From: Escherichia phage outra
Sequence record: MN850645.1
DNA length: 64,000 nucleotides
Direction: 5' to 3' (one strand)
The notes under the pieces were generated by a model that saw only the letters and a list, made by a program, of their open reading frames with translations, was not told the origin of the DNA and did no database searches. Position numbers and translations under genes: made by a program. This document shows positions 9,530 to 22,535 of this stretch, piece by piece (positions within the stretch are counted from its first letter, which is position 1; every line of letters starts with the position of its first letter).

Positions 9530-10645
9530 TTACTCTGCTGGTTCCCAAGTACCTGGAATCATCTTACGTACACGTACCCCAACAGGCTTGGTAGGAATAC
9601 CTTCGTCTGAAAATTCTTCGTACTCTATTTCAACAAATTGACCAATAAGTGTCAAAGCATTTTCTTCTTTACGATAGTTAATGGTTTCATCTGAATCCTT
9701 ACGCATCAGGAATTCGACTACTTTACCATTTTCCATCTCGCCTGTCAATACCCCGTCACCATTTTTATCACGTTTTGCACTTACCACTTTAACTTCAAGC
9801 GTCTGACGTGGTTTACGTTTAATAACATCATAAGAACGTTTATCAAACTCGTAAACACCTTGTGCGTTACGATACACCACACCTTCCGCTTTTTCACGTA
9901 GAGCTTTTGCATAGAATTCATCAAACTGCTCTTGGTTTTCAATGTATTCTGTATGTACTACACAAATTAGTTCATCTAAACCTTTATCTTCAACAACTTC
10001 TTTTAGAGCAGCTAAAACTTGAACCCTCTTCTCAAATGGTACAGATGGCACAGGAACATCATATACATAGTATTTAAGAAGTGGTGTGTTAGCATTATGC
10101 TTTTTCCACGCACTATTAATTTGTTGAAGGCTAAGGACACCCAAACCAGCAAAAACTTCACCGTCAAGAGGATGACCAACTACTTCTTTAATGAAGGTTG
10201 GAATTTCTTCCCAGTGAGGTGGAAGTTTATATACCTCACCAGCTTTAGATAAACATTCACCTTGCATGTTAATCATTGAACGTAGACCATTCAATTTATA
10301 TTGTGCATAACCTGGGAACAAAACACGGTCAGCATAATCTTTATAATCCTGACATTTCATGGGTGTGGAAGGAACATGGTTTTCAGCTTCCTCTTTTGTT
10401 TTATAATACCCATTCTTAAGTTGCTTTGTCCATTTGGCAAGAGCTTCTATTTCAGCTTGTTCTTCTGCTGTTGTTTCATTGGAGCGACCAATATTTTTAG
10501 GTTCTGCCGTATAAGATTTGCTAGTGATCTTTCCACCTAATTGACCATGAGCAACAGTTACAACACTACCTTCGGTATAGACTGACCACTGTCTAATTTT
10601 ACCTGTAGAAGTTTTACCATATAATGTAGGATTAGTTTGTTTCAT
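9530..10645 (-). CDS. ATP-dependent DNA ligase
   Basis: Motif I KLNGLR (KxDG-type), ~370 aa; start moved to Met17 (10645) with GGAGG RBS, removing overlap with upstream ORF. Confidence 0.75.
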   Translation of the reverse strand: MKQTNPTLYGKTSTGKIRQWSVYTEGSVVTVAHGQLGGKITSKSYTAEPKNIGRSNETTAEEQAEIEALAKWTKQLKNGYYKTKEEAENHVPSTPMKCQDYKDYADRVLFPGYAQYKLNGLRSMINMQGECLSKAGEVYKLPPHWEEIPTFIKEVVGHPLDGEVFAGLGVLSLQQINSAWKKHNANTPLLKYYVYDVPVPSVPFEKRVQVLAALKEVVEDKGLDELICVVHTEYIENQEQFDEFYAKALREKAEGVVYRNAQGVYEFDKRSYDVIKRKPRQTLEVKVVSAKRDKNGDGVLTGEMENGKVVEFLMRKDSDETINYRKEENALTLIGQFVEIEYEEFSDEGIPTKPVGVRVRKMIPGTWEPAE

Positions 10646-10835
10646 CTCTAACCTCCAGTTGCGAAAGAACCCATTTAGCCATTTCAATTTCACCGTGTAG
10701 TCTGCCTAGTTCATAGGCATCATCAATATTACCACCAGTGTAATCATCCACCATAAAGTAAGGATCTTCACTACTGTTAGGCGCGTTTGCAATTCTCGTT
10801 AGTTCTTCAATAAATGTCATAGTTAACCTTACCAA
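10632..10835 (-). CDS. hypothetical protein (67 aa)
   Basis: ORF track only. Confidence 0.35.
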   Translation of the reverse strand: MVRLTMTFIEELTRIANAPNSSEDPYFMVDDYTGGNIDDAYELGRLHGEIEMAKWVLSQLEVRDETN

Positions 10836-11053
10836 TTATACACAAGAGTTTGAATTTCTTCCATCAAGTCTTCAAGATCTGTATCAACATATTCAGAAGA
10901 TGTTGCCATAAAGTATGTAATCATTGTAAACCCTTCCGAAGAAAGGGCATCAAGGATATCATTAAACATATCTTCCATTTCAGTATTCTCACCAAATGAG
11001 AATAACATTTGTTGATCTTCGCTTACACCTTTAACATAGATAGCTGTACTCAT
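10829..11053 (-). CDS. hypothetical acidic protein (74 aa)
   Basis: ORF track only. Confidence 0.35.
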   Translation of the reverse strand: MSTAIYVKGVSEDQQMLFSFGENTEMEDMFNDILDALSSEGFTMITYFMATSSEYVDTDLEDLMEEIQTLVYNW

Positions 11054-11056
11054 ATA

Positions 11057-11377
11057 TTAATCCTTAAGACGTTCATTTAAATCTGCAATAACATCACCTA
11101 AATCTTCACATTCCAGTGTTAATTCGGAAACTTGTCCACTCAAATAACAAACTTCTTCATTTAGATCTGAAATAATGTTTTCTAATGAATCTACTTGGTC
11201 ATCATATGAACGTTTTGTTTCTTCAAGTTCTTCCGTAAGATCATTAATCAAACGGAGCAAAGATAAGATATAACCGTCTCCTGTTTCGTTCCTCCACTCA
11301 CTTCCGTAGCGATAAATAATAATTTCACCATTATCGACTACTGTAAAATACTTACCTTCACCAGAATAAATTTCCAT
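11057..11377 (-). CDS. hypothetical coiled-coil protein (106 aa)
   Basis: ORF track; heptad-like LxxLxxE pattern. Confidence 0.35.
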   Translation of the reverse strand: MEIYSGEGKYFTVVDNGEIIIYRYGSEWRNETGDGYILSLLRLINDLTEELEETKRSYDDQVDSLENIISDLNEEVCYLSGQVSELTLECEDLGDVIADLNERLKD

Positions 11378-11386
11378 ACACTCTCC

Positions 11387-11791
11387 TTATTGTAGCTTAA
11401 GTGAACTGCGAAGACGTTTCTCTTGCTGATCACGAATATGTTGTGGAACCTCGTGAATTGAGTCGTTACCGTGCCTATTTTCAACAACTAAAGAGATAAC
11501 TTGATAACCAAACTCTTCGGCAAGAGTTAAATAAGGTTTAAGTTCTTTCTCTGTGGTTGAAGTGTTAGAGACAATAATCTTTTCAACACCATACTGCATA
11601 TATTTTTGTACTTTGACACGACACCATTGGTGTGCTTTATGGATATTCTCTTCCTTCCACTCATACACACCATCTTCAGTGTAGTGGTATTGATCTGCCT
11701 CACAAATAGGCCAATGATTTTCAGAAATAATTTCTGCTACTGTAGATTTACCTGCGCCTGAAACACCACGTAAAATGATAAGTTGTTTCAT
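11387..11791 (-). CDS. P-loop kinase (polynucleotide/nucleotide kinase-like)
   Basis: Walker A LRGVSGAGKSTVAE at N-terminus; 134 aa; immediately downstream of RNA-ligase-like gene. Confidence 0.5.
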   Translation of the reverse strand: MKQLIILRGVSGAGKSTVAEIISENHWPICEADQYHYTEDGVYEWKEENIHKAHQWCRVKVQKYMQYGVEKIIVSNTSTTEKELKPYLTLAEEFGYQVISLVVENRHGNDSIHEVPQHIRDQQEKRLRSSLKLQ

Positions 11792-12724
11792 TTAGCCTCC
11801 AAAGAAGTTTTCTATTTCTTTACGTCGCTCTTGTGGATCTAGAGCAGCCCATTGAACCTTCGTAAAATTATTTCGAAGCCATTCTAGCAAAGTATAATAT
11901 TCTTCGTCAACAATTTGTTTAGCATTTTTTGGGTTGTCCCAAATCATATCCCACTTCTTATTGCCACCACGCATAAGGAATTTCTTAGCAAGATAGTATG
12001 GTGACTTAATCTTTAAGAGTAAGTTAAACGGATAGTTTGTTTCACGAACAACAAAGCCTTCGTGTCTACAATGTTTAGACATTTCAACAACATCTGAAAA
12101 TTTAATCATCGGATAAACTTCAGGACGTTTAAACTTTGTAACAGATGCAATCCCATCAAGAACACCTTCAGGTAACATGAAACTTGTCCCATCAAGATTT
12201 TGAATTCTTGCTCCAATTAAGTATGCGCCTGGTTCTTCTTCGACAATATGTGGATCAGAAGGATCACAGATTTCAAAAAGGAAAGTTGCTTTTGCACTTT
12301 CTGTCCACTTAATGAAATACTCTATGTCGTCACACTCGGAAACAATACGGTTCTTTGCCATAATTGCAAAATCTGATTCTAGGCTCCCTGTTGTTGATAC
12401 AACAAGTTTCCCTTTGTACACACCTACAGATGCCATAAAACCGTTTACTTTACGGACAACATCTACAATTTCGTCTGCTGGAAGATCTGTACCATTTTCA
12501 AAACGATTAAAGATTTTAGTAAAAGGCCAAATAACAACATTGTCTTCTGAGTCAACAACCAACCCACGACAATCTAGAAGTCGTTTGTCAACGTTCCACA
12601 AATTATCCCAGAATACATTGTTTTTGTATTTAAGCACAGCAAGACCAGCATACTCTCCAGATTTAACTTCTTTTTTATGCACTAAACCTTTTGCAATCAG
12701 GTCATCACAATTGAACTTAGCCAT
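11792..12724 (-). CDS. RNA ligase-like nucleotidyltransferase (Rnl2-like, putative)
   Basis: Covalent nucleotidyltransferase motif I KVNGF (KxNG); 310 aa; flanked by phosphoesterase and kinase. Confidence 0.45.
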   Translation of the reverse strand: MAKFNCDDLIAKGLVHKKEVKSGEYAGLAVLKYKNNVFWDNLWNVDKRLLDCRGLVVDSEDNVVIWPFTKIFNRFENGTDLPADEIVDVVRKVNGFMASVGVYKGKLVVSTTGSLESDFAIMAKNRIVSECDDIEYFIKWTESAKATFLFEICDPSDPHIVEEEPGAYLIGARIQNLDGTSFMLPEGVLDGIASVTKFKRPEVYPMIKFSDVVEMSKHCRHEGFVVRETNYPFNLLLKIKSPYYLAKKFLMRGGNKKWDMIWDNPKNAKQIVDEEYYTLLEWLRNNFTKVQWAALDPQERRKEIENFFGG

Positions 12725-12725
12725 C

Positions 12726-13277
12726 TTAATCTCCTTTGATTATCTTATGATGGTCTACAACAACAATATCACGCTTATCCATAATAGAGATGATTTCGTC
12801 AAAATGCAAGATTTTACCGTGTGCATCCCAACCAACATCCAACATCTTCCCATACAAATGATCAGGGAATGATCCGTGAGAGTGTCCGTGTAGCATGATT
12901 GATCCATGCCCTTGTTTATTCCAGGCAGCCATAGGGTAATGGCTTAAGACGAAAAACAGCTTCTGATATTTCACTTCGTCATAATAAACCACTTCTCCAT
13001 ACTCTGCAAGCACTTTTCTGTGTTTACTGTAATCATGGTTCCCAACACAGTAAGTAATATCCCCTTGGAGACGGGAAGCAATCTTACGGGTATCTTCTTC
13101 AGTCCCGAAACAGAAGTCCCCAAGATGGTACATCTTTACTCCTGGTGTTGTGGCACATTTATTCCATGCTTCGATCAGTGCTTCTGTCATATGCTCCATA
13201 TCTTCCCACGGGCGATATTCAGGAGCAAACTCTCGGATACGTTTGTGCATAAAATGCAAATCACTTGTAATAAACAT
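12726..13277 (-). CDS. calcineurin-like metallophosphoesterase
   Basis: SDLHF...GDFCFG...GNHDY...GHSHG metal-binding motif series. Confidence 0.7.
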   Translation of the reverse strand: MFITSDLHFMHKRIREFAPEYRPWEDMEHMTEALIEAWNKCATTPGVKMYHLGDFCFGTEEDTRKIASRLQGDITYCVGNHDYSKHRKVLAEYGEVVYYDEVKYQKLFFVLSHYPMAAWNKQGHGSIMLHGHSHGSFPDHLYGKMLDVGWDAHGKILHFDEIISIMDKRDIVVVDHHKIIKGD

Positions 13278-13639
13278 TAGTATAATCCCTCGCTGAATAG
13301 TTCACTGTTGTGACCATTTCTTTCGTAGTTAATTTGTTTGGCGTTATCTGCAATGATATAAGCATCTTTTCGACTCCACCAATTGTAATACTGATCAATA
13401 AACCCTTGATTATCAGGTAAGCAAAACAGTTTATCGATCAATCCTGCATCTTTTAAAACATTAAGTTGTGCAGATAGTATAGGATTTGCATGCCTAACAC
13501 AAGGAATAATTAACTCTTCACCATTGTTGAGAATATACTTATTCGCAGCGCAGACTATAACACGTTGAGCATAGTGATCCTCACCAATCCAGGTAAGAGG
13601 TTGGTAACAAATATCATGTTGATTAGTAGCGCACATCAA
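13277..13639 (-). CDS. hypothetical protein (120 aa)
   Basis: ORF track only. Confidence 0.4.
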   Translation of the reverse strand: MMCATNQHDICYQPLTWIGEDHYAQRVIVCAANKYILNNGEELIIPCVRHANPILSAQLNVLKDAGLIDKLFCLPDNQGFIDQYYNWWSRKDAYIIADNAKQINYERNGHNSELFSEGLY

Positions 13640-13794
13640 TTTTCTCCATACTCTTTTAGTCTATCAGCGAAAAAACTGTAATCAGGAAGTAAAAGATCAT
13701 TACTCGTATCGCTCCAGTTCTCTTCCTCTCTATAGATAAAATGCCCTTCATCCTCTTCTTGCTCTGACCAAACTGAATAATGCATAATACCTAC

Positions 13795-14169
13795 TTAATA
13801 GTTAACACGTTTAATTTCAACACCATAGGATGAAATAAAATTTTCCTTAGCTAACATATATTTACCAGCAGCAGAAGGATTTGATGTATGAACATAGATA
13901 GTTTTAAGAGCATCCCATTCACCCGCGTACAACATACATTCTACATCCAAGAACGCATGATATCCTTCTTGATCTTCTCCAAGATCATTATCGAAGTGTA
14001 TCTCTGAGATAGTATTGAAATTATCTTCATCTGAAACAAAAGATGACCAATCCTCAAAAGATTTTAACCAAATGGCATCCTCATAACCATAATCTTTAGG
14101 ATCTCTTAAATCGTCTAACCAAAGAATTTTAGCCACTATCAACCTCCTTCCTGTTTCTCTTCTTTCCAA
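13795..14169 (-). CDS. hypothetical protein (124 aa)
   Basis: ORF track; ILWLDDLRDP / IHFDNDLGE segments of unknown significance. Confidence 0.4.
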   Translation of the reverse strand: MERRETGRRLIVAKILWLDDLRDPKDYGYEDAIWLKSFEDWSSFVSDEDNFNTISEIHFDNDLGEDQEGYHAFLDVECMLYAGEWDALKTIYVHTSNPSAAGKYMLAKENFISSYGVEIKRVNY

Positions 14170-15762: not shown

Positions 15763-15893
15763 TATTTCCTCCTGTATGGCTCTGTAACGAGCTAATCGCC
15801 TTTAAGATATGCAATCACCTTACCTCACAGTAAAACTCGTTACAATCGTTTTTAGGAGGTTTAGGTTGTACTTAAAAATAATCTAAAAAGGTG

Positions 15894-15922
15894 TTGACAA
15901 ACGCAAAAAAGTATGCTACCCT
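15894..15922 (+). promoter_or_regulatory. sigma70-like promoter candidate (TTGACA-N17-TACCCT)
   Basis: Consensus -35 hexamer, weak -10; followed by GC hairpin ACCCCC...GGGGGT. Confidence 0.3.
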
Positions 15923-16103
15923 AACCCCCGAAAAACGCCGAGCGCAGCGAGGGGGTGTTATCTAATCTTGTGATACATGATCTAACAGACAACTGAGTAG
16001 TCTACATATAGCATTATGTTATGTCTCTAATACTAACATACATACTCTATACTAACAATAGATTCTTTATTAATTTTATTATTAATTAAATAATAAATAT
16101 CTA

Positions 16104-16132
16104 TTGACTTTAGATCTATCTGTATGTAGAGT
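16104..16132 (+). promoter_or_regulatory. sigma70-like promoter (TTGACT-N17-TAGAGT) with A/T-rich UP-like region
   Basis: Hexamers at correct spacing ~40 nt upstream of the Prs-like gene; preceded by ~60 nt A/T tract. Confidence 0.5.
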
Positions 16133-16171
16133 AGAGAACATAAAGTCCTAACTCAACTAAGGAGATAAACA

Positions 16172-17065
16172 ATGAAAGTTAGTATTCTACATGGTGTTGG
16201 CTGTTATGTTACTGATGTAGACGTTAAAGTCTTTACATTCTCTGGTGGAGAACAACATGTTCAACTAGACACGAATCTATCAGGTTTCAATCATGCTACA
16301 GACAGAATCTTACTCTCTTTAGAAGTAAGATCTGCTAAAGACTTGATGACTTTGGTTATGACTAAGAATGCATTGGACAATATGCTATATCATAAACCAT
16401 ATTGTGTTGATTTGCTCATGTTGTATGTGCCATATGCACGACAAGACAGAGTGTGTGAACCTGGGGAAGCATTCGGAGTTAAAGCATTTGCTTCTATAAT
16501 TAATTCATTAAATTTCTCACGTGTTATCGTTGCTGATCCACATAGTGATGTTACTCCAGCAGTGTTTGACAGACTCTGTGTAATATCTCAAGAAGAGATT
16601 GCTTACGAAACTTTAAAGTGGAAGTTACGTATGGAGAATTTTGCTCTTGTTAGCCCTGATGGTGGTGCTCTTAAGAAAATATTTAAATTATCTAAGAAAA
16701 TGTCTTTAGATGTGTTCTGTGCAGAGAAGGTTAGAGATACTGCAACAGGTGCTATTGTTCGTACAGACATTTCTGTACAGGATTTCAATAAACGTAACCT
16801 GATGATCGTAGATGATATCTGTGACGGCGGTAGAACTTTTATTGAATTGGCTAAAGTGCTACGTGCTCGTAACGCAGGTAAGATTGAGTTATATGTTACA
16901 CACGGTATCTTTTCTAAAGGTCTTAAAGAGTTAAGTGAGCACTTTGACTGCATTCATTCTCTTAATGTGTGGGAAGATAACATCCAAGAAGATTCCGGTG
17001 TTCTTGTTAAGAATCAGTCAGATTTGCAACAACAAATTGTATCTCCATACGTGTGGAATTTTTAA
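16172..17065 (+). CDS. ribose-phosphate pyrophosphokinase (Prs) homologue; candidate ADP-ribose pyrophosphokinase
   Basis: YVPYARQDRV (Prs Y.GYARQDR motif) and LMIVDDICDGGRTF (PRPP-binding loop); RBS AAGGAG. Confidence 0.8.
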   Translation: MKVSILHGVGCYVTDVDVKVFTFSGGEQHVQLDTNLSGFNHATDRILLSLEVRSAKDLMTLVMTKNALDNMLYHKPYCVDLLMLYVPYARQDRVCEPGEAFGVKAFASIINSLNFSRVIVADPHSDVTPAVFDRLCVISQEEIAYETLKWKLRMENFALVSPDGGALKKIFKLSKKMSLDVFCAEKVRDTATGAIVRTDISVQDFNKRNLMIVDDICDGGRTFIELAKVLRARNAGKIELYVTHGIFSKGLKELSEHFDCIHSLNVWEDNIQEDSGVLVKNQSDLQQQIVSPYVWNF

Positions 17066-17075
17066 ATAATAAGTG

Positions 17076-17104
17076 TTGACAATAGGGAGTATGCTTAGTA
17101 AGAT
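17076..17104 (+). promoter_or_regulatory. sigma70-like promoter (TTGACA-N17-TAAGAT)
   Basis: Sits in the 70-nt gap between the Prs-like and Nampt-like genes. Confidence 0.5.
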
Positions 17105-17136
17105 ACTCCCACACTAACAAACAAGGAGACATAACT

Positions 17137-18870
17137 ATGAATATTTTTGCACCTTTTGCTACTGATTGGTATAAACCTGGTCACAAGCAGATGTACAACC
17201 AAAATACAAAACTCATTTTCTCTAATTTAACTCCTCGTAATGATAAAAACTTTGCACACTATGCAGATCGTGAAGCACGTGGTGTGATTGTTTTAGGTAT
17301 TCGTCGAGCAGTCACTGATGCTCTTGTAATTATGTGGGACAGCTTCTTTAAAATGTCTCGTAGTGCAGCAGTAAATAAATTTTATCGTATGTCTAAAAAT
17401 GCATTAGGTGCTTCTGCTCCTTCTGCTGAATGTTGGGGAGAATTGCACGATTTAGGTTATCTTCCGCTAGAAGTTCGATCTCTGCCAGAAGGTGTTTTGT
17501 GTCCTATTGGTGTTCCTGTGTTTACTGTGCATAATACTTTAGAAAAATTCTTTTGGTTAACTAACTATGTGGAAACACTCTTGTCAGATGAAACTTGGAA
17601 GACAATGACTAATGCCACAGCAGCTTTTCAGTATAAGCGTATCGCTATGGCGTATGCGATGGCAACGTGTGATAACATTGATCACGTTAATTTCCAGTGT
17701 CATGACTTTAGCCTACGTGGTTTAAGCAATATCGAAGATGGTTATAAGAGTGGTATCGCTCATTTGGCATCTTTCACAGGTACAGATAATATTCTGGCTA
17801 TTGAAACTGTGCATGATTACTATGGTATTGATTATGATCAGTTTGTTGCAGGTTCTATTCCGGCAACAGAACATTCAGTAGCAACGACTAACATTGGAGC
17901 TATTGTTGAAGATCTAAAGGAACATTTTCCACGTCTTAAAGCTGATGTAGATTGGCTTCGTTATGTAGCAGAAAAAGAGTTTCTTCGTCGTTATATTGAA
18001 GAAATTGTTCCAGAAGGTTTTTGTTCATATGTAGCAGATTCTTATGATTACTGGACTGTATTGACTAACATTCTGGTAGAGTTGAAAGATTCCATCATGT
18101 CACGAAATGGTCGTCTTGTTATTCGTCCAGATTCAGGAGATCCGGTTAAAGTTGTTGCAGGGTACAATGTTGAATCTTTTGATAACTATGAAGATCTTTT
18201 AAATAATGGTATTGCTACAGCCACTGAAGTAGTACATTTGGCTGATGTTAATAAGTATTACAATGTTCTTCAGGATTGCAGTGTTGCTGATTGTATTGAT
18301 GAAACTTATGAGATTCCTTATTGTGAAGCAGTAGGTTCTATTCAAATCCTTTGGGAAGTGTTTGGCGGCACTATCAATCGAAAAGGCTACAAGGTTCTTG
18401 ATCAGCACATCGGTATGATTTATGGTGATTCTATTACTGTTGAACGAGAACACGAAATCTTACGCCGACTGAAGAAGAAAGGCTTTGCTGCTTCCAATAT
18501 TGTATTTGGTGTTGGTAGTTATACTTATCAGTTCAATACACGAGATACTTTTGGTTTTGCTGTTAAAGCAACAGGTAGTATCATCGGTGAACACGAAATT
18601 TTGGTAAGTAAGGAGCCTAAAACTGATCCTGGTAAACGCTCTGCAAAAGGTTTTATTAAGGTTGTTAAGGATACAAATGGTAAACTTTCTCTTGTGGATA
18701 ATCTTTCTTTTAAAGATATCCAAGATGAAGACAATGAGTTAAAAGTTATCTTCAGGGATGGTACGGTTATTACACCACAAGTAGAAGGACGTGATGAAAC
18801 ATTTACTGATATCCGTAACCGTGTTGATGTAGAGGTTCTTCGTACTATGGGAACCATCCAGGTTGACTAA
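17137..18870 (+). CDS. nicotinamide phosphoribosyltransferase (Nampt/NadV) homologue
   Basis: FATDWYKPGHKQMY N-terminal Nampt signature, 577 aa; RBS AAGGAG. Confidence 0.8.
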   Translation: MNIFAPFATDWYKPGHKQMYNQNTKLIFSNLTPRNDKNFAHYADREARGVIVLGIRRAVTDALVIMWDSFFKMSRSAAVNKFYRMSKNALGASAPSAECWGELHDLGYLPLEVRSLPEGVLCPIGVPVFTVHNTLEKFFWLTNYVETLLSDETWKTMTNATAAFQYKRIAMAYAMATCDNIDHVNFQCHDFSLRGLSNIEDGYKSGIAHLASFTGTDNILAIETVHDYYGIDYDQFVAGSIPATEHSVATTNIGAIVEDLKEHFPRLKADVDWLRYVAEKEFLRRYIEEIVPEGFCSYVADSYDYWTVLTNILVELKDSIMSRNGRLVIRPDSGDPVKVVAGYNVESFDNYEDLLNNGIATATEVVHLADVNKYYNVLQDCSVADCIDETYEIPYCEAVGSIQILWEVFGGTINRKGYKVLDQHIGMIYGDSITVEREHEILRRLKKKGFAASNIVFGVGSYTYQFNTRDTFGFAVKATGSIIGEHEILVSKEPKTDPGKRSAKGFIKVVKDTNGKLSLVDNLSFKDIQDEDNELKVIFRDGTVITPQVEGRDETFTDIRNRVDVEVLRTMGTIQVD

Positions 18871-18941
18871 ATAAAAACTTCGTGATAAGATTAAGGTAAG
18901 GAGAGCCTGCAACTGCCCTGGATGGGCTTCACGAAGGATTT

Positions 18942-19283: not shown

Positions 19284-19313
19284 TTGACAACATAGCTAGT
19301 TATTTGCTAAGAT
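19284..19313 (+). promoter_or_regulatory. sigma70-like promoter (TTGACA-N18-TAAGAT)
   Basis: Upstream of ORF 19344 and the tRNA array. Confidence 0.45.
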
Positions 19314-19617: not shown

Positions 19618-19693
19618 GGTTCCATAGCTCACTGACGAGAGCGCACACCTCATAAGTGTCGAGGGCAGGGATTGTAACCCTGGGGAACCACCA
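19618..19693 (+). tRNA. tRNA, anticodon CAT (Met or Ile-lysidine)
   Basis: Hand-folded cloverleaf: acceptor GGTTCCA, D-loop with GG, anticodon loop CTCATAA, encoded CCA; coordinates +/- 2. Confidence 0.6.
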
Positions 19694-19724
19694 TTTAAAA
19701 GGAGGTGCTATGCATCTCCTATAT

Positions 19725-19810
19725 GCAAGTGTGGTGGAATTGGTGATACACATTGTGCTTAAAACGCAACGCTTAAATGATTGAGGGTTCGAATCCCTCC
19801 ACTTGCACCA
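19725..19810 (+). tRNA. tRNA-Leu (TAA), type II
   Basis: Acceptor GCAAGTG/CACTTGC, anticodon loop CTTAAAA, long variable arm, T-arm GAGGGTTCGAATCCCTC, CCA. Confidence 0.65.
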
Positions 19811-19812
19811 AC

Positions 19813-19921
19813 GCCTAGTAGGGTATTTGGTAATTCCGAGGCCATCAAAGCCTGAAAAATATGTTAGACCGCTTTGTCTAACTAAATACGAAATATGGTT
19901 CGATTCCATAACTAGGCTCCC
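19813..19921 (+). ncRNA. atypical ~105-nt tRNA-like element (possible anticodon UCA); may be a pseudo-tRNA
   Basis: Perfect 7-bp acceptor pairing GCCTAGT/ACTAGGC and canonical T-arm TATGGTTCGATTCCATA, but oversized internal region with extra 6-bp hairpin; putative anticodon loop CATCAAA is non-canonical (A at position 33). Confidence 0.3.
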
Positions 19922-19953
19922 AATTTAAATAGTAATTTTTTAATAAAAATATC

Positions 19954-19982
19954 TTGACATTTACTTAGTTTTTTGTTATAGT
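19954..19982 (+). promoter_or_regulatory. sigma70-like promoter (TTGACA-N17-TATAGT)
   Basis: Near-consensus hexamers ~12 nt upstream of next tRNA-like gene. Confidence 0.5.
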
Positions 19983-19993
19983 CATTATGAAAA

Positions 19994-20075
19994 CGGGGTG
20001 TATCTCACCTGACTTCTAATCAGGCGTTAACCGAGTAATTGGAGTATGCAGGTTCGAATCCTGTCACCCCGGCCA
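19994..20075 (+). tRNA. tRNA-like gene, possible Arg (TCT); structure atypical
   Basis: 7-bp acceptor CGGGGTG/CACCCCG, T-arm GCAGGTTCGAATCCTGT, CCA, and clean anticodon arm CCTGA-CTTCTAA-TCAGG; D-arm spacing could not be folded canonically by hand. Confidence 0.35.
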
Positions 20076-20093
20076 AAAAGTTTTAAAAACTAC

Positions 20094-20122
20094 TTGACAA
20101 GCAAGATAGTTTTATGTTAGAT
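20094..20122 (+). promoter_or_regulatory. sigma70-like promoter (TTGACA-N17-TTAGAT)
   Basis: Upstream of tRNA-Ser. Confidence 0.4.
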
Positions 20123-20138
20123 TTAAAGTATGGTAACT

Positions 20139-20228
20139 GGAAGGTAGGGCGCAGCGGTGCGCAACCAGGTTTGAACCCTGGCCCATTGTAGCGATACGGT
20201 GATGGTTCGACTCCATTATCTTCCTCCA
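20139..20228 (+). tRNA. tRNA-Ser (TGA), type II
   Basis: Acceptor GGAAGGT/ATCTTCC, anticodon arm CCAGG-TTTGAAC-CCTGG, long variable arm, T-arm GATGGTTCGACTCCATT, CCA; 3' end anchored to track ORF 20199. Confidence 0.7.
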
Positions 20229-20246
20229 AATTCTCTTAGGAGCTTT

Positions 20247-20399
20247 ATGAATTATAAAACTATTGGACAGGTTGTTACCGGAGTTAAGATTGTAAATAAT
20301 AAAGTTGTTTATGAGTATTCTAATCTTCAACAATCTGAAGATGGTAAGAATATTCGTATGGTAAAAGCAGAACAAAAAGATTCCGGTTGTTTTGAATAA
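20247..20399 (+). CDS. hypothetical small protein (50 aa)
   Basis: Track ORF 20199..20399 starts inside tRNA-Ser; internal ATG at 20247 with RBS TAGGAG is the more plausible start. Confidence 0.3.
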   Translation: MNYKTIGQVVTGVKIVNNKVVYEYSNLQQSEDGKNIRMVKAEQKDSGCFE

Positions 20400-20407
20400 T
20401 TAAGAAC

Positions 20408-20493
20408 GGTAGATTGGTGAAATGGTAGCCACAACAGTTTGCTAAACTGTCGTCGGAAACGGCGTGTAGGTTCAAGTCCTACATCTACCGCCA
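20408..20493 (+). tRNA. tRNA-Ser (GCT), type II
   Basis: Acceptor GGTAGAT/ATCTACC, anticodon arm ACAGT-TTGCTAA-ACTGT, T-arm GTAGGTTCAAGTCCTAC, CCA. Confidence 0.65.
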
Positions 20494-20664
20494 AGTTATC
20501 TTTAATGTAGCTTGTTGCTCTTAGTTGCTTGGTGTAACTTTTTGGAAGGATGGCTGCAACCATCTTACTTTAATAGAGTAAACTTTCGGCAGATGGCCCC
20601 CCACCATCTTACCGATACCTCATAGTTAGTGGTGCGAACACTGGCTATTTTAAAGATAATTTAT

Positions 20665-20740
20665 ACATCGTTAGCTTAGTTGGTAGAGCAAGGGGCTTTT
20701 AACTCCAAGGTCGAAGGTTCGAATCCTTCACGATGTACCA
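20665..20740 (+). tRNA. tRNA-Lys (TTT)
   Basis: Acceptor ACATCGT/ACGATGT, D-loop AGTTGGTAG, anticodon loop CTTTTAA, T-arm GAAGGTTCGAATCCTTC, CCA. Confidence 0.65.
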
Positions 20741-20745
20741 AACAC

Positions 20746-20832
20746 GTAGGTATCGCATAGCGGCAATTGCTGGAGACTGTAAATCTCCTGCCCTTCGGGG
20801 CTTCGTTGGTTCGAGTCCAACTACCTGCACCA
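20746..20832 (+). tRNA. tRNA-Tyr (GTA), type II
   Basis: Anticodon arm GGAGA-CTGTAAA-TCTCC, long variable arm, T-arm GTTGGTTCGAGTCCAAC, CCA. Confidence 0.65.
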
Positions 20833-20839
20833 AATTAAA

Positions 20840-20924
20840 GATGGATTGGCCTAGTGGTTGGGCGACGGACTGTTAATCCGTGAACGAAAGTTCTAGCAAG
20901 GTTCAAATCCTTGATCCATCGCCA
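20840..20924 (+). tRNA. tRNA with anticodon GTT (Asn-like) and an unusually long variable arm
   Basis: Acceptor GATGGAT/ATCCATC, anticodon arm ACGGA-CTGTTAA-TCCGT, variable hairpin GAACGAAAGTTC, T-arm CAAGGTTCAAATCCTTG, CCA. Confidence 0.5.
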
Positions 20925-21003
20925 AATAGTGCTTGTAGAGTTAATAGAAACCTCTAGAATTTTCTAGAATTGTAGGTATCAAATCCTACCAAGCAAATAT
21001 TTT

Positions 21004-21078
21004 GCTCCTATCGTATAACGGCTATTACGGTTGCCTTGTAAGCAACTTATCAGGGTTCGAGTCCTTGTGGGAGCACCA
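21004..21078 (+). tRNA. tRNA-Thr (TGT)
   Basis: Acceptor GCTCCTA/TGGGAGC, anticodon arm GTTGC-CTTGTAA-GCAAC, T-arm CAGGGTTCGAGTCCTTG, CCA. Confidence 0.65.
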
Positions 21079-21095
21079 ATTTTAACTCTAAAGGA

Positions 21096-21425
21096 GTGTA
21101 TGTGACAGAAAAAGAGTTAGAGAAATATTTTAATATCAATGTTTTCGATGGTTTTGATGATATCGAAGATGTTGAAAGATATTATGAAGTAGAGTTAGAT
21201 AAGGATAACATTGTAATTCTTTCTGCCACTTATGATTGTGCATATTATGAAGGTGAATCTCACGTTTATTTTTATGATATGAAAACATCTTTGTTTTATG
21301 AAGTACACGCATATCATTGTTCTTGTTATGGCTTAGAAGGTCAGTGGGAACCTGAAGAAATAGGTGATTTGGACTTTACTATTGCATATCTAAACAGACG
21401 TGGTGCATCTAATATTTTAAAATAA
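21096..21425 (+). CDS. hypothetical protein (109 aa)
   Basis: ORF track; GTG start adjacent to AAGGAG; HCSCYG Cys/His segment. Confidence 0.45.
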   Translation: MYVTEKELEKYFNINVFDGFDDIEDVERYYEVELDKDNIVILSATYDCAYYEGESHVYFYDMKTSLFYEVHAYHCSCYGLEGQWEPEEIGDLDFTIAYLNRRGASNILK

Positions 21426-21439
21426 ATATCAAAAGCCTC

Positions 21440-21469
21440 TTGACAAAGAGGCTAATAATATGTTAGAGT
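21440..21469 (+). promoter_or_regulatory. sigma70-like promoter inside an 8-bp inverted repeat (AGCCTCTTGACAAAGAGGCT)
   Basis: TTGACA lies in the loop of a perfect palindrome; -10-like TAGAGT about 18 nt downstream; upstream of tRNA-Gly. Confidence 0.45.
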
Positions 21470-21480
21470 AATATTGTTAA

Positions 21481-21555
21481 GCGGGTATAGTGTTAATGGT
21501 AGCATATGAGGTTTCCACCCTCCAGGTGCAGGTTCAAGTCCTGTTACTCGCTCCA
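21481..21555 (+). tRNA. tRNA-Gly (TCC)
   Basis: Acceptor GCGGGTA/TACTCGC, anticodon loop TTTCCAC, T-arm GCAGGTTCAAGTCCTGT, CCA. Confidence 0.6.
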
Positions 21556-21655
21556 AGATTATTTAAATGGAATCGCTAGAGAAAATTTCTCTTTTCGCTC
21601 ATGGTTTTCTCCTTCAAACTCTAGCGGTTCTTTTTAAGTGATTTTTTAGTTTTAT

Positions 21656-21730
21656 TGGAGATTAGCCTAGTGGGAAGGCAACGGCCTTTGAAGTCGTGAT
21701 GACTAGGTTCGATTCCTAGATCTCCAGCCA
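21656..21730 (+). tRNA. tRNA-Gln (TTG)
   Basis: Acceptor TGGAGAT/ATCTCCA, anticodon loop CTTTGAA, T-arm CTAGGTTCGATTCCTAG, CCA. Confidence 0.65.
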
Positions 21731-21737
21731 ATATTTA

Positions 21738-21813
21738 CAGTGCGTAGCGCAGTTGGTAGCGTGGGAGCTTTGGATGCTTCGGGTCGCAGGTTCGAGTCCT
21801 GCCGCACTGACCA
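21738..21813 (+). tRNA. tRNA-Pro (TGG)
   Basis: Acceptor CAGTGCG/CGCACTG, D-loop AGTTGGTA, anticodon loop TTTGGAT, T-arm GCAGGTTCGAGTCCTGC, CCA. Confidence 0.65.
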
Positions 21814-21818
21814 AATTT

Positions 21819-21893
21819 GCAGAGATAGCTGAGACGGATTAGTGCTACCCTGAAAAGGTAGAAAGGATGGATCGTTACCATCTCTCTGCACCA
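21819..21893 (+). tRNA. tRNA-Phe (GAA), non-canonical T-loop
   Basis: Acceptor GCAGAGA/TCTCTGC, anticodon arm CTACC-CTGAAAA-GGTAG, T-arm GATGG-ATCGTTA-CCATC, CCA. Confidence 0.55.
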
Positions 21894-21970
21894 AATAACA
21901 CCATCCAAGGAGTAGACTTGGTTAACTGTCAATAGCACATTGAGGCTTCTTACAGTGGTGTATTTATTAT

Positions 21971-22055
21971 GGCTAAGTGGTGGAATGGTATACACGATAC
22001 GCTTAGAACGTATTGCCCCAAGGGATTGTGAGTTCGAGTCTCACCTTAGCTACCA
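21971..22055 (+). tRNA. tRNA-Leu (TAG), type II
   Basis: Anticodon arm ATACG-CTTAGAA-CGTAT, long variable arm, T-arm GTGAGTTCGAGTCTCAC, CCA. Confidence 0.65.
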
Positions 22056-22143
22056 TATCTAAGAGATATCATAGGGTTTGCAACGGATATCTACCGTCCT
22101 GTTAAGGATACCACGCCAAGACGGGTTATAAAGGGTTAGCCAT

Positions 22144-22219
22144 TGATAGTGTGAAGCTGGCGTTTCGAGTGCTTTCATAAGGCATTGCGAGAAGAGTTCG
22201 ATTCTCTTACTATCAACCA
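22144..22219 (+). tRNA. tRNA, anticodon CAT (Met/Ile2 class)
   Basis: Acceptor TGATAGT/ACTATCA, anticodon loop TTCATAA, T-arm AAGAGTTCGATTCTCTT, CCA. Confidence 0.55.
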
Positions 22220-22234
22220 AATTACTACAGATTG

Positions 22235-22313
22235 CGCGGGATAGAGGAGTCTGGTCGTCCTCGCCAGTTTCATATGCTGGAGATCATCGGTTCGAATCCG
22301 ATTCCCGCCTCCA
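22235..22313 (+). tRNA. tRNA, anticodon CAT; unpaired 1:72 position (initiator-like feature)
   Basis: 5' CGCGGGA vs 3' TCCCGCC leaves a C:C mismatch at 1:72; anticodon arm CCAGT-TTCATAT-GCTGG; T-arm ATCGGTTCGAATCCGAT, CCA. Confidence 0.5.
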
Positions 22314-22371
22314 TTAAATACCTCCCTTCTGGTGTAATGATTAAATTGCATTGACACTTCAAGGAACTCAT

Positions 22372-22454
22372 AGCCGGGTAGATTTAAAAGAGTATGGTAC
22401 TCAATATGGCTCCAAACCATAGATCAAGGGGTTCGATTCCTCACCTTGCTGCCA
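22372..22454 (+). tRNA. tRNA-Trp (CCA) candidate; boundaries uncertain
   Basis: Clean anticodon arm TATGG-CTCCAAA-CCATA and T-loop GGGGTTCGATTCC with CCA end, but acceptor pairing is imperfect by hand. Confidence 0.35.
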
Positions 22455-22459
22455 ATTAT

Positions 22460-22535
22460 TGTGGTATCGTACAGATGGTTAGTACACTCGACCGATAATC
22501 GAGAAACAACGGTTCGATTCCGTTTACCACGACCA
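22460..22535 (+). tRNA. tRNA-Ile (GAT)
   Basis: Acceptor TGTGGTA/TACCACG, anticodon arm CTCGA-CCGATAA-TCGAG, T-arm AACGGTTCGATTCCGTT, CCA. Confidence 0.65.

What the first reader, a model, noticed from the sequence alone, without database searches (positions are those of the whole stretch)
16172..18870. Prs-like + Nampt-like gene pair: candidate phage NAD+ reconstitution module
Two adjacent plus-strand genes, each with its own sigma70-like promoter, encode a ribose-phosphate pyrophosphokinase homologue (YVPYARQDRV, LMIVDDICDGGRTF) and a nicotinamide phosphoribosyltransferase homologue (FATDWYKPGHKQMY). No NMN adenylyltransferase is seen beside them, so classic salvage to NAD+ would be incomplete. 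This architecture matches the recently described NARP1 pathway, in which a Prs homologue pyrophosphorylates ADP-ribose and a Nampt homologue joins it to nicotinamide, letting phage rebuild NAD+ after depletion by Thoeris/SIR2/DSR-type defences. If so, this is an anti-defence module, not housekeeping.
Basis: partly seen in the sequence, partly recalled or inferred. Interest (0 to 1): 0.8.

Follow-up and report, generated by a model that had tools for sequence, protein, structure and literature searches.

The report
Known phage NAD+ rebuilding gene pair

Summary
ORFs 16172-17065 (297 aa, Prs-like) and 17137-18870 (577 aa, Nampt-like) exist on the + strand and contain the quoted motifs. The window is a phi92-like coliphage (Justusliebigvirus), 99.3% identical to vB_Eco_PATM.

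The NARP1 reading is supported:
- The Prs-like protein groups with the characterised Adps of Bas63 and SPbetaL1 and away from six canonical Prs (500/500 NJ bootstraps). It has Adps-type residues at every Prs-diagnostic motif and keeps the catalytic Lys (K186).
- The Nampt-like protein scores far higher against Namat (398 and 381 bits) than against the NARP2 Nampt of KVP40 (132+85 bits). It carries the published Namat signature, GSYTYQFNTRD, where KVP40 has GGGLLQQLDRD.
- No Nmnat homologue is found in the window or in the complete genome of a 98.9%-identical relative.

It is not new. The paper that defined NARP1 lists phi92 gp107 and gp108 (1 and 11 aa different from the window proteins) and three phi92-like BASEL phages as Adps/Namat pairs.

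No phi92-type enzyme has been assayed directly. Identity to tested orthologues is 35-40%, and one loop of the selectivity clamp deviates.

Side lead: relatives carry an unlinked homologue (41% identity) of the NARP1-associated phosphatase Adpp, outside the window.

The parts
16104..16132 (+). Promoter-like site upstream of the adps-like gene (TTGACT-17-TAGAGT, 9/12)
   Evidence: Consensus scan; sequence read. It lies in a 409-bp divergent intergenic region that is about 97% identical in phi92 and EmilieFrey. Function not shown.
16160..16164 (+). AGGAG ribosome-binding site, 7 nt before the ATG of gene 1
   Evidence: Sequence. The phi92 RefSeq record annotates the same RBS.
16172..17065 (+). 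adps-like gene: ADPR-pyrophosphate synthetase homologue (297 aa, Prs family, Adps clade)
   Evidence: ORF. TIGR01251 at 119.8 bits, but only 100 bits against the 297-bit cut-off of the canonical Prs model NF002320. 35% identity to Bas63_0079 (E 5e-43). NJ split of canonical Prs from Adps-type proteins 500/500. One aa different from phi92 gp107, which is listed in Osterman Table S1.
16724..16750 (+). EKVRDTATG loop of Adps, containing K186. K186 is the equivalent of SPbetaL1 Adps K162 and E. coli Prs K194.
   Evidence: Alignment and residue mapping. K162A inactivates SPbetaL1 Adps. Canonical Prs have DKRRPRxNV here.
16799..16840 (+). LMIVDDICDGGRTF: ribose-5-phosphate-binding loop in the Adps form (DDICDGGRT, against DDMIDTGGT in Prs)
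   Evidence: Alignment of 17 Adps-type and 6 canonical Prs sequences; coordinates.
17076..17104 (+). Promoter-like site in the 71-bp gap between the two genes (TTGACA-17-TAAGAT, 10/12)
   Evidence: One of three copies of TTGAC[AT]-N16-18-TAAGAT in the window against 0.15 expected, all directly upstream of + strand genes. Function not shown.
17137..18870 (+). namat-like gene: nicotinamide ADPR-transferase homologue (577 aa, Nampt family, Namat clade)
   Evidence: ORF. NF006629 at 460.6 bits and PF04095. 40% identity to Bas63_0080 (E 2e-136). Best solved structures are 9w5x and 9w5w at 398 bits, against 167 bits for human Nampt. 381 bits to SPbetaL1 Namat against 132+85 bits to KVP40 NadV. Eleven aa different from phi92 gp108, listed as 'Adps-associated' in Osterman Table S2.
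17230..17283 (+). Selectivity-clamp loop (SCL) region, TPR-NDKNFAHYADREARG. The third residue is K37; the fourth is N38, not aromatic.
   Evidence: Alignment; the SCL rule comes from Lan et al.. The loop is longer than in SPbetaL1 and Bas63, so the stacking residue cannot be assigned from sequence.
17860..17880 (+). PATEHSV, containing the catalytic histidine H246 of the Nampt-like core
   Evidence: A conserved catalytic His is described. The equivalent H243A mutant was used to inactivate Namat of phage Gary.
18514..18546 (+). Selectivity-clamp helix (SCH) signature GSYTYQFNTRD (aa 460-470)
   Evidence: Fits the published Namat consensus GS-X-Phi1-X-Phi2-X-Phi3-TRD, with aromatic X = Y462, Y464, F466 and Phi = T, Q, N. 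SPbetaL1 has GSFTYQYNTRD. KVP40 Nampt has GGGLLQQLDRD.

Best explanation
The two genes are the NARP1 pathway of a phi92-like coliphage.

When a host defence (SIR2-HerA/Nezha, DSR1/2, type I Thoeris, SEFIR and similar) cleaves NAD+ into ADP-ribose and nicotinamide, the pathway works in two steps. First, Adps (16172-17065) uses ATP to pyrophosphorylate the free ribose of ADP-ribose, giving ADPR-PP. Second, Namat (17137-18870) displaces the pyrophosphate with nicotinamide and regenerates NAD+ directly. No NMN intermediate or Nmnat is needed.

Shown here:
- gene anatomy;
- clade membership of both proteins;
- conservation of catalytic and specificity motifs;
- absence of Nmnat;
- near identity to proteins already catalogued as NARP1.

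Inferred from characterised orthologues at 35-40% identity: the chemistry itself and the anti-defence phenotype.
For: (1) The window is a Justusliebigvirus. The pair is 96.6-99.4% identical in 55 phage records.

(2) Osterman et al. (bioRxiv 10.1101/2024.02.11.579819) defined NARP1 genetically on Bas63 genes 79-80 and biochemically on the SPbetaL1 enzymes. Their Tables S1 and S2 list phi92 FR775895_00103/_00104 and the three phi92-like BASEL phages as Adps with Namat nearby, and as 'Adps-associated' Namat. The window proteins differ from the phi92 ones by 1 and 11 residues.

(3) Adps:
- BLASTP scores of 184, 182, 154 and 137 bits to four Namat-associated Adps, against 71 bits to E. coli Prs.
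- The NJ bipartition {6 canonical Prs} | {17 Adps-type, including the window, Bas63 and SPbetaL1} is recovered in 500/500 bootstraps.
- Adps character states at every diagnostic block: no N-terminal NxxLAxxIA segment; TFSGGE, not RFSDGE; DPHSDVTPA, not DLHAxQIQGFF; EKVRDTATG, not DKRRPRxNV; DDICDGGRT, not DDMIDTGGT; no C-terminal SxSxLF tail.
- The catalytic Lys is conserved as K186.

(4) Namat:
- 398 and 381 bits to Bas63 and SPbetaL1 Namat, against 132+85 bits to KVP40 NadV.
- The top solved structures are 9w5x and 9w5w.
- All NMN-site residues are conserved: D10, Y12, F191, R194, D217, H246, R330, D332, G430, D431.
- The SCH signature GSYTYQFNTRD is present.

(5) No NadR- or NadD-type Nmnat is found in the window or in the whole EmilieFrey genome (best E = 0.49). 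Positive controls cross-detect at 1e-10 to 1e-33.

(6) A PHROG profile, phrog_12872, matches Adps over its first half and Namat over its second. This implies natural Adps-Namat fusions.

(7) The GC content of both genes (0.367 and 0.374) equals the window average of 0.377, so the pair is resident, not a recent import.
Against: No enzyme of the phi92 type has been purified or assayed, and no deletion has been made in a phi92-like phage in the papers I read. Function is transferred across 35-40% identity.

The SCL half of the Namat selectivity clamp does not follow the published rule. The third residue is Lys, but the fourth is Asn, not an aromatic residue, and the loop is longer.

Namat has two insertions, at about aa 253-282 and 343-399, that are absent from the crystallised enzyme.

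TIGR01251, the broad Prs subfamily model, is just passed (119.8 against 113 bits). Residual PRPP synthetase activity therefore cannot be excluded from sequence. SPbetaL1 Namat also makes NMN from PRPP in vitro when ADPR-PP is absent.
Confidence: 0.9

Rival explanations
1. Classical PRPP-based salvage, as in the database annotation. The first enzyme would be a true ribose-phosphate pyrophosphokinase making PRPP. The second would be a true Nampt making NMN. Host NadR or PncC/NadD would then finish NAD+.
For: Pfam, NCBIfam, PHROG and GenBank names all say Prs and Nampt. TIGR01251 is passed at 119.8 against 113 bits. The Nampt-like catalytic core is intact, and SPbetaL1 Namat can make NMN from PRPP in vitro.
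Against: - The protein scores only 54-100 bits against canonical Prs models whose cut-offs are 296-536 bits.
- It separates from canonical Prs in 500/500 bootstraps and differs at the R5P-loop and flexible-loop motifs.
- SPbetaL1 Adps gave no product in the PRPP-synthetase test. Bas63 rescue did not need pncC or nadR.
- The Namat SCH signature that confers ADPR-PP preference is present.
Confidence: 0.05
2. The chemistry is the same (ADPR + nicotinamide -> NAD+), but the main role is housekeeping for the phage. The pathway would recycle ADP-ribose released by the phage's own NAD+-consuming enzymes, or simply raise NAD+ for replication, and would not primarily counter host immunity.
For: phi92-like genomes themselves encode a SIR2-family protein (PF02146, 1.3e-22), a Macro-domain protein and a NADAR/YbiA-like enzyme. 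The pair sits in an early-looking region next to a tRNA array, with nucleotide-metabolism genes on the other flank. AntiDefenseFinder authors report that most NARP1 hits in bacteria lie outside prophages, and they suggest housekeeping roles there.
Against: In Bas63, ADPR-PP appeared only when the SIR2-HerA defence was present. The deletion phenotype was defence-specific. Housekeeping and counter-defence roles are not mutually exclusive.
Confidence: 0.1
3. NARP2-type pathway: a Nampt working with a phage Nmnat encoded elsewhere in the genome.
For: Only about 44% of the roughly 147-kb genome is inside the window, so a distant Nmnat could in principle exist.
Against: - tblastn with E. coli NadR, E. 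coli NadD and two phage NadR-like proteins finds nothing in the window or in the complete EmilieFrey genome.
- No such product appears among EmilieFrey's 278 annotated features.
- The protein lacks the KVP40-type GGGLLQQLDRD segment.
- Osterman et al. found no phage with both NARP1 and NARP2.
Confidence: 0.02

Closest known systems
NARP1 of Escherichia phage JohannRWettstein (Bas63, Felixounavirus), genes bas63_0079 and bas63_0080
   Same: - Same two-gene order, adps then namat, on one strand with a short gap (45 bp against 71 bp).
- Adps-clade Prs homologue with DDICDGGRTF and THGIFSKG.
- Long Namat (593 against 577 aa) with insertions at the same two places.
- SCH motif GSYTYQ[YF]xTRD, and Lys at the third SCL position.
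- E. coli host.
   Different: Identity is only 35% (Adps) and 40% (Namat). The phage family is different. Bas63 has W43 after the SCL lysine, where the window has N38-F39. Bas63 has deletion and metabolomics evidence; the phi92 type has none.
NARP1 of Bacillus phage SPbetaL1 (Adps WIT26982, Namat WIT26983). From the 491-aa length and the motif residues, PDB entries 9w5x and 9w5w appear to be this Namat.
   Same: - Conserved catalytic Lys: K162 in SPbetaL1, K186 in the window.
- All NAM- and NMN-binding residues are conserved.
- SCH aromatic pair: F392/Y396 in SPbetaL1, Y462/F466 in the window.
- Best solved-structure match for the window Namat.
   Different: - Adps gives only 83 bits (35% identity over 176 aa), and its loop reads DDLSSFGGT.
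- The SPbetaL1 genes overlap instead of being separated by a promoter-like gap.
- SPbetaL1 Namat is 86 aa shorter and uses R40 as the SCL stacking residue.
NARP2 of Vibrio phage KVP40 (NadV Nampt plus an Nmnat)
   Same: A Nampt-family enzyme used by a phage to restore NAD+ against the same defences.
   Different: KVP40 NadV prefers PRPP, has GGGLLQQLDRD in place of the SCH signature, and scores only 132+85 bits. NARP2 needs an Nmnat, which the phi92-like genome lacks. NARP2 has no Adps.
NARP1-AP of Vibrio phage Gary (Adps - Adpp Macro phosphatase - Namat)
   Same: Same Adps and Namat core. phi92-like genomes encode a protein 41% identical to Gary Adpp over 154 aa (E 1e-36), with the essential His conserved (H24 in Gary, H112 in bas61_0068).
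   Different: There is no Macro gene within the operon or among ten neighbouring ORFs. The homologue lies 64-82 kb away, outside the window, beside a ComF-like PRTase and a HAD hydrolase. phi92-likes are absent from the published NARP1-AP table.
Canonical bacterial Prs (E. coli b1207) and Nampt (human, Xanthomonas)
   Same: Same folds and catalytic cores (ARQDR, catalytic Lys; Nampt His, Arg and Asp residues).
   Different: Different clade, different substrate-loop motifs, missing N- and C-terminal Prs segments, and presence of the adenine clamp motif.

Membership tests
NARP1 (Adps + Namat) | The first enzyme belongs to the Adps subclade of the Prs family, not to canonical Prs | tested here: met
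   The NJ bipartition of 6 canonical Prs from 17 Adps-type sequences (including the window, Bas63 and SPbetaL1) is recovered in 500/500 bootstraps. Adps character states are present at all diagnostic blocks. Scores fall below the canonical Prs model cut-offs.
NARP1 (Adps + Namat) | Adps catalytic lysine (SPbetaL1 K162; Gary K192) | tested here: met
   K186 aligns with SPbetaL1 K162, Bas63 K190 and E. coli K194.
NARP1 (Adps + Namat) | A Namat homologue within 10 genes of adps (the paper's operational criterion) | tested here: met
   The genes are adjacent, on the same strand, with a 71-bp gap. The criterion is quoted.
NARP1 (Adps + Namat) | Namat keeps the Nampt-like catalytic core (SPbetaL1 D13, Y15, F189, R192, D215, catalytic His, R306, D308, G360, D361) | tested here: met
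   The window has D10, Y12, F191, R194, D217, H246, R330, D332, G430 and D431.
NARP1 (Adps + Namat) | [quoted passage not shown] | tested here: met
   GSYTYQFNTRD at aa 460-470. The consensus is given. The KVP40 Nampt lacks it.
NARP1 (Adps + Namat) | Namat SCL supplies an adenine-stacking residue: third loop residue Arg, or Lys/Tyr followed by a stacking fourth residue | tested here: inconclusive
   The third residue is K37, as in Bas63, but the fourth is N38. F39 or Y42 might substitute in a loop that is 2 residues longer than in Bas63 and 6 longer than in SPbetaL1. Resolving this needs a dimer-ligand model or a structure.
NARP1 (Adps + Namat) | Namat falls in the Adps-associated clade, not the Nmnat-associated (NARP2) clade | tested here: met
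   398 and 381 bits to Bas63 and SPbetaL1 Namat, against 132+85 bits to KVP40 NadV. 398 bits to PDB 9w5x against 167 bits to human Nampt. phi92 gp108 is labelled 'Adps-associated' in Osterman Table S2.
NARP1 (Adps + Namat) | Enzymology: ADPR + ATP -> ADPR-PP, then ADPR-PP + nicotinamide -> NAD+, with preference over R5P and PRPP | not testable with these tools
   Shown only for SPbetaL1, Paenibacillus foliorum and DyoEdafos enzymes, and through Bas63 metabolomics.
NARP1 (Adps + Namat) | Phenotype: rescues the phage from NAD+-depleting defences independently of host pncC and nadR | not testable with these tools
   Shown for Bas63, FADO, and SPbetaL1 NARP1 knock-ins. No experiment on a phi92-like phage was found.
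NARP2 (Nampt + Nmnat) | Nmnat homologue encoded in the same phage genome | tested here: not met
   tblastn with NadR, NadD and two phage NadR-like queries gives a best E of 0.49 in the window plus the whole EmilieFrey genome. Controls score 1e-10 to 1e-33.
Canonical ribose-phosphate pyrophosphokinase (Prs) | Reaches the curated canonical Prs family score and has the Prs motifs RFSDGE, DLHAxQIQGFF, DKRRPRxNV and DTGGT | tested here: not met
   100.5 bits against a 297-bit cut-off (NF002320), and 98.3 against 296 (NF002095). Only the broad TIGR01251 model passes, at 119.8 against 113 bits. All four motifs are replaced.
NARP1-AP (NARP1 with associated Adpp phosphatase) | Macro-domain Adpp gene within two genes of the NARP1 pair | tested here: not met
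   No Macro hit in ten flanking ORFs. The Adpp homologue of relatives is unlinked and lies outside the window. phi92-likes are not in the published table.

The most novel reading that the evidence does not exclude
phi92-like phages may run a 'split' NARP1-AP. Besides the Adps-Namat pair in this window, all 55 related genomes carry, 64-82 kb away and outside the window, a Macro-domain protein. In EmilieFrey this is bas61_0068. It is 41% identical to the ADPR-1''-phosphate phosphatase Adpp of Vibrio phage Gary, and the essential His is conserved.

If that enzyme feeds ADPR to NARP1 in trans, these phages would also resist aRES-type defences. The published estimate that 15% of NARP1 phages have Adpp, which came from scanning only +/-2 genes, would then be an undercount.

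A smaller variant concerns Namat itself. The deviant clamp loop and the two insertions of phi92-type Namat might change donor specificity.
Probability: 0.25. Interest if true: 0.35.

Novelty: already known. Interest (0 to 1): 0.15.

Why it matters
NARP1 is an important recent discovery: phages rebuild a metabolite that host immunity destroys, using two enzymatic reactions not described before. This window adds nothing new to that. It is a catalogued instance in a well-sequenced phage genus.

The practical value is in annotation. In all 55 GenBank/RefSeq relatives the pair is still labelled 'ribose-phosphate pyrophosphokinase' and 'nicotinamide/nicotinate phosphoribosyltransferase', or 'hypothetical protein'. 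It should read Adps and Namat, an anti-defence function.

For phage-therapy candidates of the phi92 group, it predicts resistance to SIR2, DSR and type I Thoeris style NAD+ depletion.

The only forward-looking element is the unlinked Adpp homologue. It would be cheap to test in the BASEL phages Bas60-62.

Tried and rejected
- Looked for accessory NARP1 genes next to the pair (Macro/Adpp, RyR-domain RyDEP, Nmnat). A Pfam scan of ten flanking ORFs found none. It returned only a cREC_REC domain and a weak metallophosphoesterase, both belonging to an RNA-repair cluster.
- Checked the 151-nt 'hypothetical tRNA' that phi92 RefSeq annotates inside the Namat CDS. Neither ARAGORN nor Rfam supports it. 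I treat it as an annotation artefact.
- Folded the G+C-rich hairpin in the divergent intergenic region (15915-15975) on both strands. The z-scores are -0.55 and -0.42, which is not significant. Rfam finds nothing there.
- The first bootstrap run used Biopython rooted-clade support and gave uninformative values for the key split. I replaced it with explicit bipartition counting.
- Considered that the unlinked Macro protein proves NARP1-AP, and rejected it as proof. The Poa1p-like Macro family occurs in 1591 phage records, including T4-like phages, so it is not specific to NARP1.
- Did not run structure prediction. The selectivity clamp forms across the dimer interface around a ligand, so a monomer model would not settle the SCL question.
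- A guessed accession, MZ501085, turned out to be an unrelated BASEL phage.


Full report
**Observation.** The window contains two adjacent + strand ORFs at exactly the reported coordinates: 16172-17065 (297 aa) and 17137-18870 (577 aa), separated by 71 bp. Protein 1 matches the ribose-phosphate pyrophosphokinase subfamily model TIGR01251 (1.1e-34) and the Pfam PRTase domains. Protein 2 matches NF006629 (5.4e-138) and PF04095.

A 10/12 sigma70-like site, TTGACA-17-TAAGAT, lies in the gap between the genes at 17076-17104. It is one of three copies of TTGAC[AT]-N16-18-TAAGAT in the 64-kb window, against 0.15 expected. All three are on the + strand, directly upstream of gene starts. Gene 1 is preceded by a weaker 9/12 site at 16104-16132 and an AGGAG ribosome-binding site. 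These are consensus matches only. Promoter-like sites in the region as a whole are not clearly enriched (21 against 14.6 +/- 3.7).

**Source of the window.** The region is 99.3% identical to Escherichia phage vB_Eco_PATM and 96.6-98.9% identical to 54 other records, including phi92 and the BASEL phages EmilieFrey (Bas61), PaulScherrer and JohannJBalmer. It is therefore a Justusliebigvirus (Stephanstirmvirinae) genome. The window corresponds to EmilieFrey coordinates 123161-146666 followed by 1-41735.

The pair opens the rightward transcription unit at a strand-switch point (GC skew changes sign near 16 kb). A tRNA array follows downstream. On the opposite strand upstream lies an RNA-repair and nucleotide-metabolism block. 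The GC content of the two genes equals the window average.

**What is already published.** Osterman et al. (bioRxiv 10.1101/2024.02.11.579819) noticed this two-gene operon in four BASEL phages. They deleted it in Bas63 and showed defence-specific loss of plating on SIR2-HerA hosts, independent of host pncC and nadR. They detected ADPR-PP in infected cells. With purified SPbetaL1 enzymes they showed that the Prs-like protein (Adps) pyrophosphorylates ADP-ribose, and that the Nampt-like protein (Namat) joins ADPR-PP to nicotinamide to give NAD+.

Their Table S1 lists phi92 FR775895_00103 and the EmilieFrey, PaulScherrer and JohannJBalmer proteins with 'Namat within 10 genes: Yes'. Table S2 lists the partner proteins as 'Adps-associated'. 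The window proteins differ from phi92 gp107 and gp108 by 1 and 11 residues, and from the EmilieFrey proteins by 2 and 3. The finding is therefore a catalogued member of NARP1.

**Independent test of Adps.** Bas63, the phage used for the genetics, is a Felixounavirus. Its Adps is only 35% identical to the window protein, so I tested membership independently.
- BLASTP gives 184, 182, 154 and 137 bits to four Namat-associated Adps, 83 bits to SPbetaL1 Adps and 71 bits to E. coli Prs.
- I aligned 17 Adps-type proteins with six canonical Prs from Gammaproteobacteria, Alphaproteobacteria, Bacillota and Actinomycetota.
- Neighbour-joining with 500 bootstraps recovers the split between canonical Prs and Adps-type proteins (including the window, Bas63 and SPbetaL1) in 500/500 replicates.
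- The window protein has the Adps state at every block that separates the groups. It lacks the N-terminal NxxLAxxIA segment and the C-terminal SxSxLF tail. It has TFSGGE for RFSDGE, DPHSDVTPA for DLHAxQIQGFF, EKVRDTATG for DKRRPRxNV, and DDICDGGRT for DDMIDTGGT in the ribose-5-phosphate loop.
- The lysine whose mutation inactivates SPbetaL1 Adps (K162) is conserved as K186.
- Against the curated canonical Prs models it reaches about 100 bits where 296-297 are required.

**Independent test of Namat.**
- The window protein scores 398 and 381 bits against Bas63 and SPbetaL1 Namat, but 132+85 bits against the PRPP-preferring NARP2 Nampt of KVP40.
- Its best solved-structure matches are 9w5x and 9w5w, at 398 bits against 167 for human Nampt. 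From their 491-aa length and motif residues, these entries appear to be SPbetaL1 Namat.
- Lan et al. (PMC12774641) defined the structural basis of ADPR-PP selectivity as a 'selectivity clamp'. It consists of a conserved helix motif (SCH), GS-X-Phi-X-Phi-X-Phi-TRD with adenine-stacking aromatics, and a variable loop (SCL).
- The window protein has GSYTYQFNTRD at aa 460-470, an exact fit. KVP40 has GGGLLQQLDRD at that position.
- All residues contacting nicotinamide and the NMN ribose-phosphate, and the catalytic histidine (H246), are conserved.
- The SCL is the one feature that does not fit cleanly. The third residue is Lys, as in Bas63, but the next is Asn, not Trp, and the loop is longer. The stacking residue cannot be assigned from sequence.
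- Relative to the crystallised enzyme, the protein has two insertions, at about aa 253-282 and 343-399. Bas63 Namat has insertions at the same places.

**Absence of Nmnat.** tblastn with E. coli NadR and NadD and two phage NadR-like proteins finds nothing better than E = 0.49 in the window or the complete EmilieFrey genome. The same queries detect each other at 1e-10 to 1e-33. No such product is annotated among EmilieFrey's 278 features. This excludes NARP2 and agrees with the published statement that no phage carries both pathways.

A PHROG profile that matches Adps over its first half and Namat over its second indicates that natural fusions of the two exist. This is further evidence that they act together.

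**Mechanism and confidence.** The best-supported reading (about 0.9) is that this is NARP1. ATP-dependent pyrophosphorylation of ADP-ribose by Adps is followed by nicotinamide transfer by Namat. This regenerates NAD+ after cleavage by SIR2, TIR or SEFIR-type effectors.
- Shown here: anatomy, clade placement, motif conservation and genomic context.
- Inferred from orthologues at 35-40% identity: the chemistry and the phenotype.
- Rivals: classical PRPP/NMN salvage (about 0.05), a primarily housekeeping role for the same chemistry (about 0.1, not exclusive), and NARP2 (about 0.02).

**Side observation outside the window.** The phi92-like genomes carry a three-gene cluster: a Macro-domain protein, a ComF-like PRTase (PF15610, 1.5e-41) and a HAD hydrolase. 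It lies about 15 kb beyond the right end of the window. Like the NARP1 pair, it matches 55 phage records.

The Macro protein is 41% identical (E 1e-36) over its whole domain to Adpp of Vibrio phage Gary, and the His that was mutated in that study is conserved. Adpp is the ADPR-1''-phosphate phosphatase that extends NARP1 to overcome the aRES defence.

The published survey scanned only two genes either side of NARP1, and it does not list phi92-likes. A 'split' NARP1-AP is therefore possible. However, this Poa1p-like Macro family occurs in 1591 phage records, including T4-like phages, so the link is only a hypothesis.

**Verdict.** Interest is low. The main use is to correct the annotation of these genes, from Prs/Nampt to Adps/Namat.

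Noticed in passing
L012:6875-9090 (EmilieFrey MZ501063 56875-59090; outside the window, about 15 kb past its right end): A cluster of a Macro-domain protein, a ComF-like PRTase_3 and a HAD hydrolase matches 55 phage records. The Macro protein is 41% identical (E 1e-36) to the characterised ADPR-1''-P phosphatase Adpp of Vibrio phage Gary, with the catalytic His conserved. It is unlinked to the NARP1 pair and was missed by the published +/-2-gene survey.
   Followed up: partly
window 19618-22535: A + strand tRNA array lies immediately downstream of the pair. ARAGORN finds 16 genes. Rfam adds a further tRNA at 19994-20072 (38.6 bits) that ARAGORN missed, and does not report three of ARAGORN's calls (19618, 20139, 22144) at gathering score.
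   Followed up: partly
window 17076-17104, 18863-18891, 19284-19313: The motif TTGAC[AT]-N16-18-TAAGAT occurs three times (0.15 expected), all on the + strand just upstream of genes. It is probably a phage early or middle promoter class. The copy at 18863 overlaps the Namat stop codon.
   Followed up: partly
window 9530-14169, minus strand: An RNA and DNA repair block, identified by correspondence to the EmilieFrey annotation: ATP-dependent DNA ligase (9530-10645), polynucleotide kinase (11387-11791), RNA ligase (11792-12724) and a metallophosphoesterase (12726-13277). There is also a protein with a cyclic-phosphate-processing receiver domain (cREC_REC, PF20274, 8.7e-14) at 13795-14169. It is likely a tRNA-repair counter-defence module.
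   Followed up: partly
window ~17729-17879 (phi92 NC_023693 49736-49886): phi92 RefSeq annotates a 151-nt 'hypothetical tRNA' inside the Namat coding sequence. Neither ARAGORN nor Rfam detects anything there, so it is probably an annotation artefact.
   Followed up: yes
window 17137-18870 (aa 253-282 and 343-399): The phi92-type Namat has two insertions relative to the crystallised SPbetaL1 enzyme, together accounting for most of its extra 86 residues. Bas63 Namat has insertions at the same positions. Their role is unknown.
   Followed up: no
window 16172-18870: PHROG profile phrog_12872 (547 positions) matches Adps over positions 9-222 and Namat over positions 221-536. This implies that single-chain Adps-Namat fusions exist in some phages.
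   Followed up: no
L013:3822-4634 (EmilieFrey bas61_0186) and L012:27084-27635 (bas61_0107); outside the window: The same phage genus encodes its own SIR2-family protein (PF02146, 1.3e-22). It also encodes a gene annotated as a YbiA-like N-glycosidase, which is probably the NADAR protein reported for Bas60-62 in the DarTG1 counter-defence study. Atd1 (anti-TIR) is also reported for Justusliebigvirus. The genus therefore carries a concentration of NAD/ADP-ribose-related genes.
   Followed up: partly
hits H54-H56 and H80 (MG065639, MG065645, MG065656, MG065689): Four records named 'Campylobacter phage' (host C. jejuni, about 146 kb) are 97.8% identical to this E. coli phi92-like region. This suggests mislabelled hosts or contaminating coliphage in those preparations.
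   Followed up: no
proteins P0059, P0061, P0084, P0099: Adps-type homologues at 43-46% identity occur on megabase-scale bacterial contigs (Geminocystis spp.) and in Thorsellia anophelis. This is consistent with reports of bacterial NARP1 copies.
   Followed up: no
window 15763-16171: The 409-bp divergent intergenic region upstream of adps is about 97% identical in phi92 and EmilieFrey, apart from a 12-bp AT-rich duplication in EmilieFrey. It contains a TTGACA box and a G+C-rich hairpin (15924-15956) whose folding energy is not significant (z about -0.5).
   Followed up: yes
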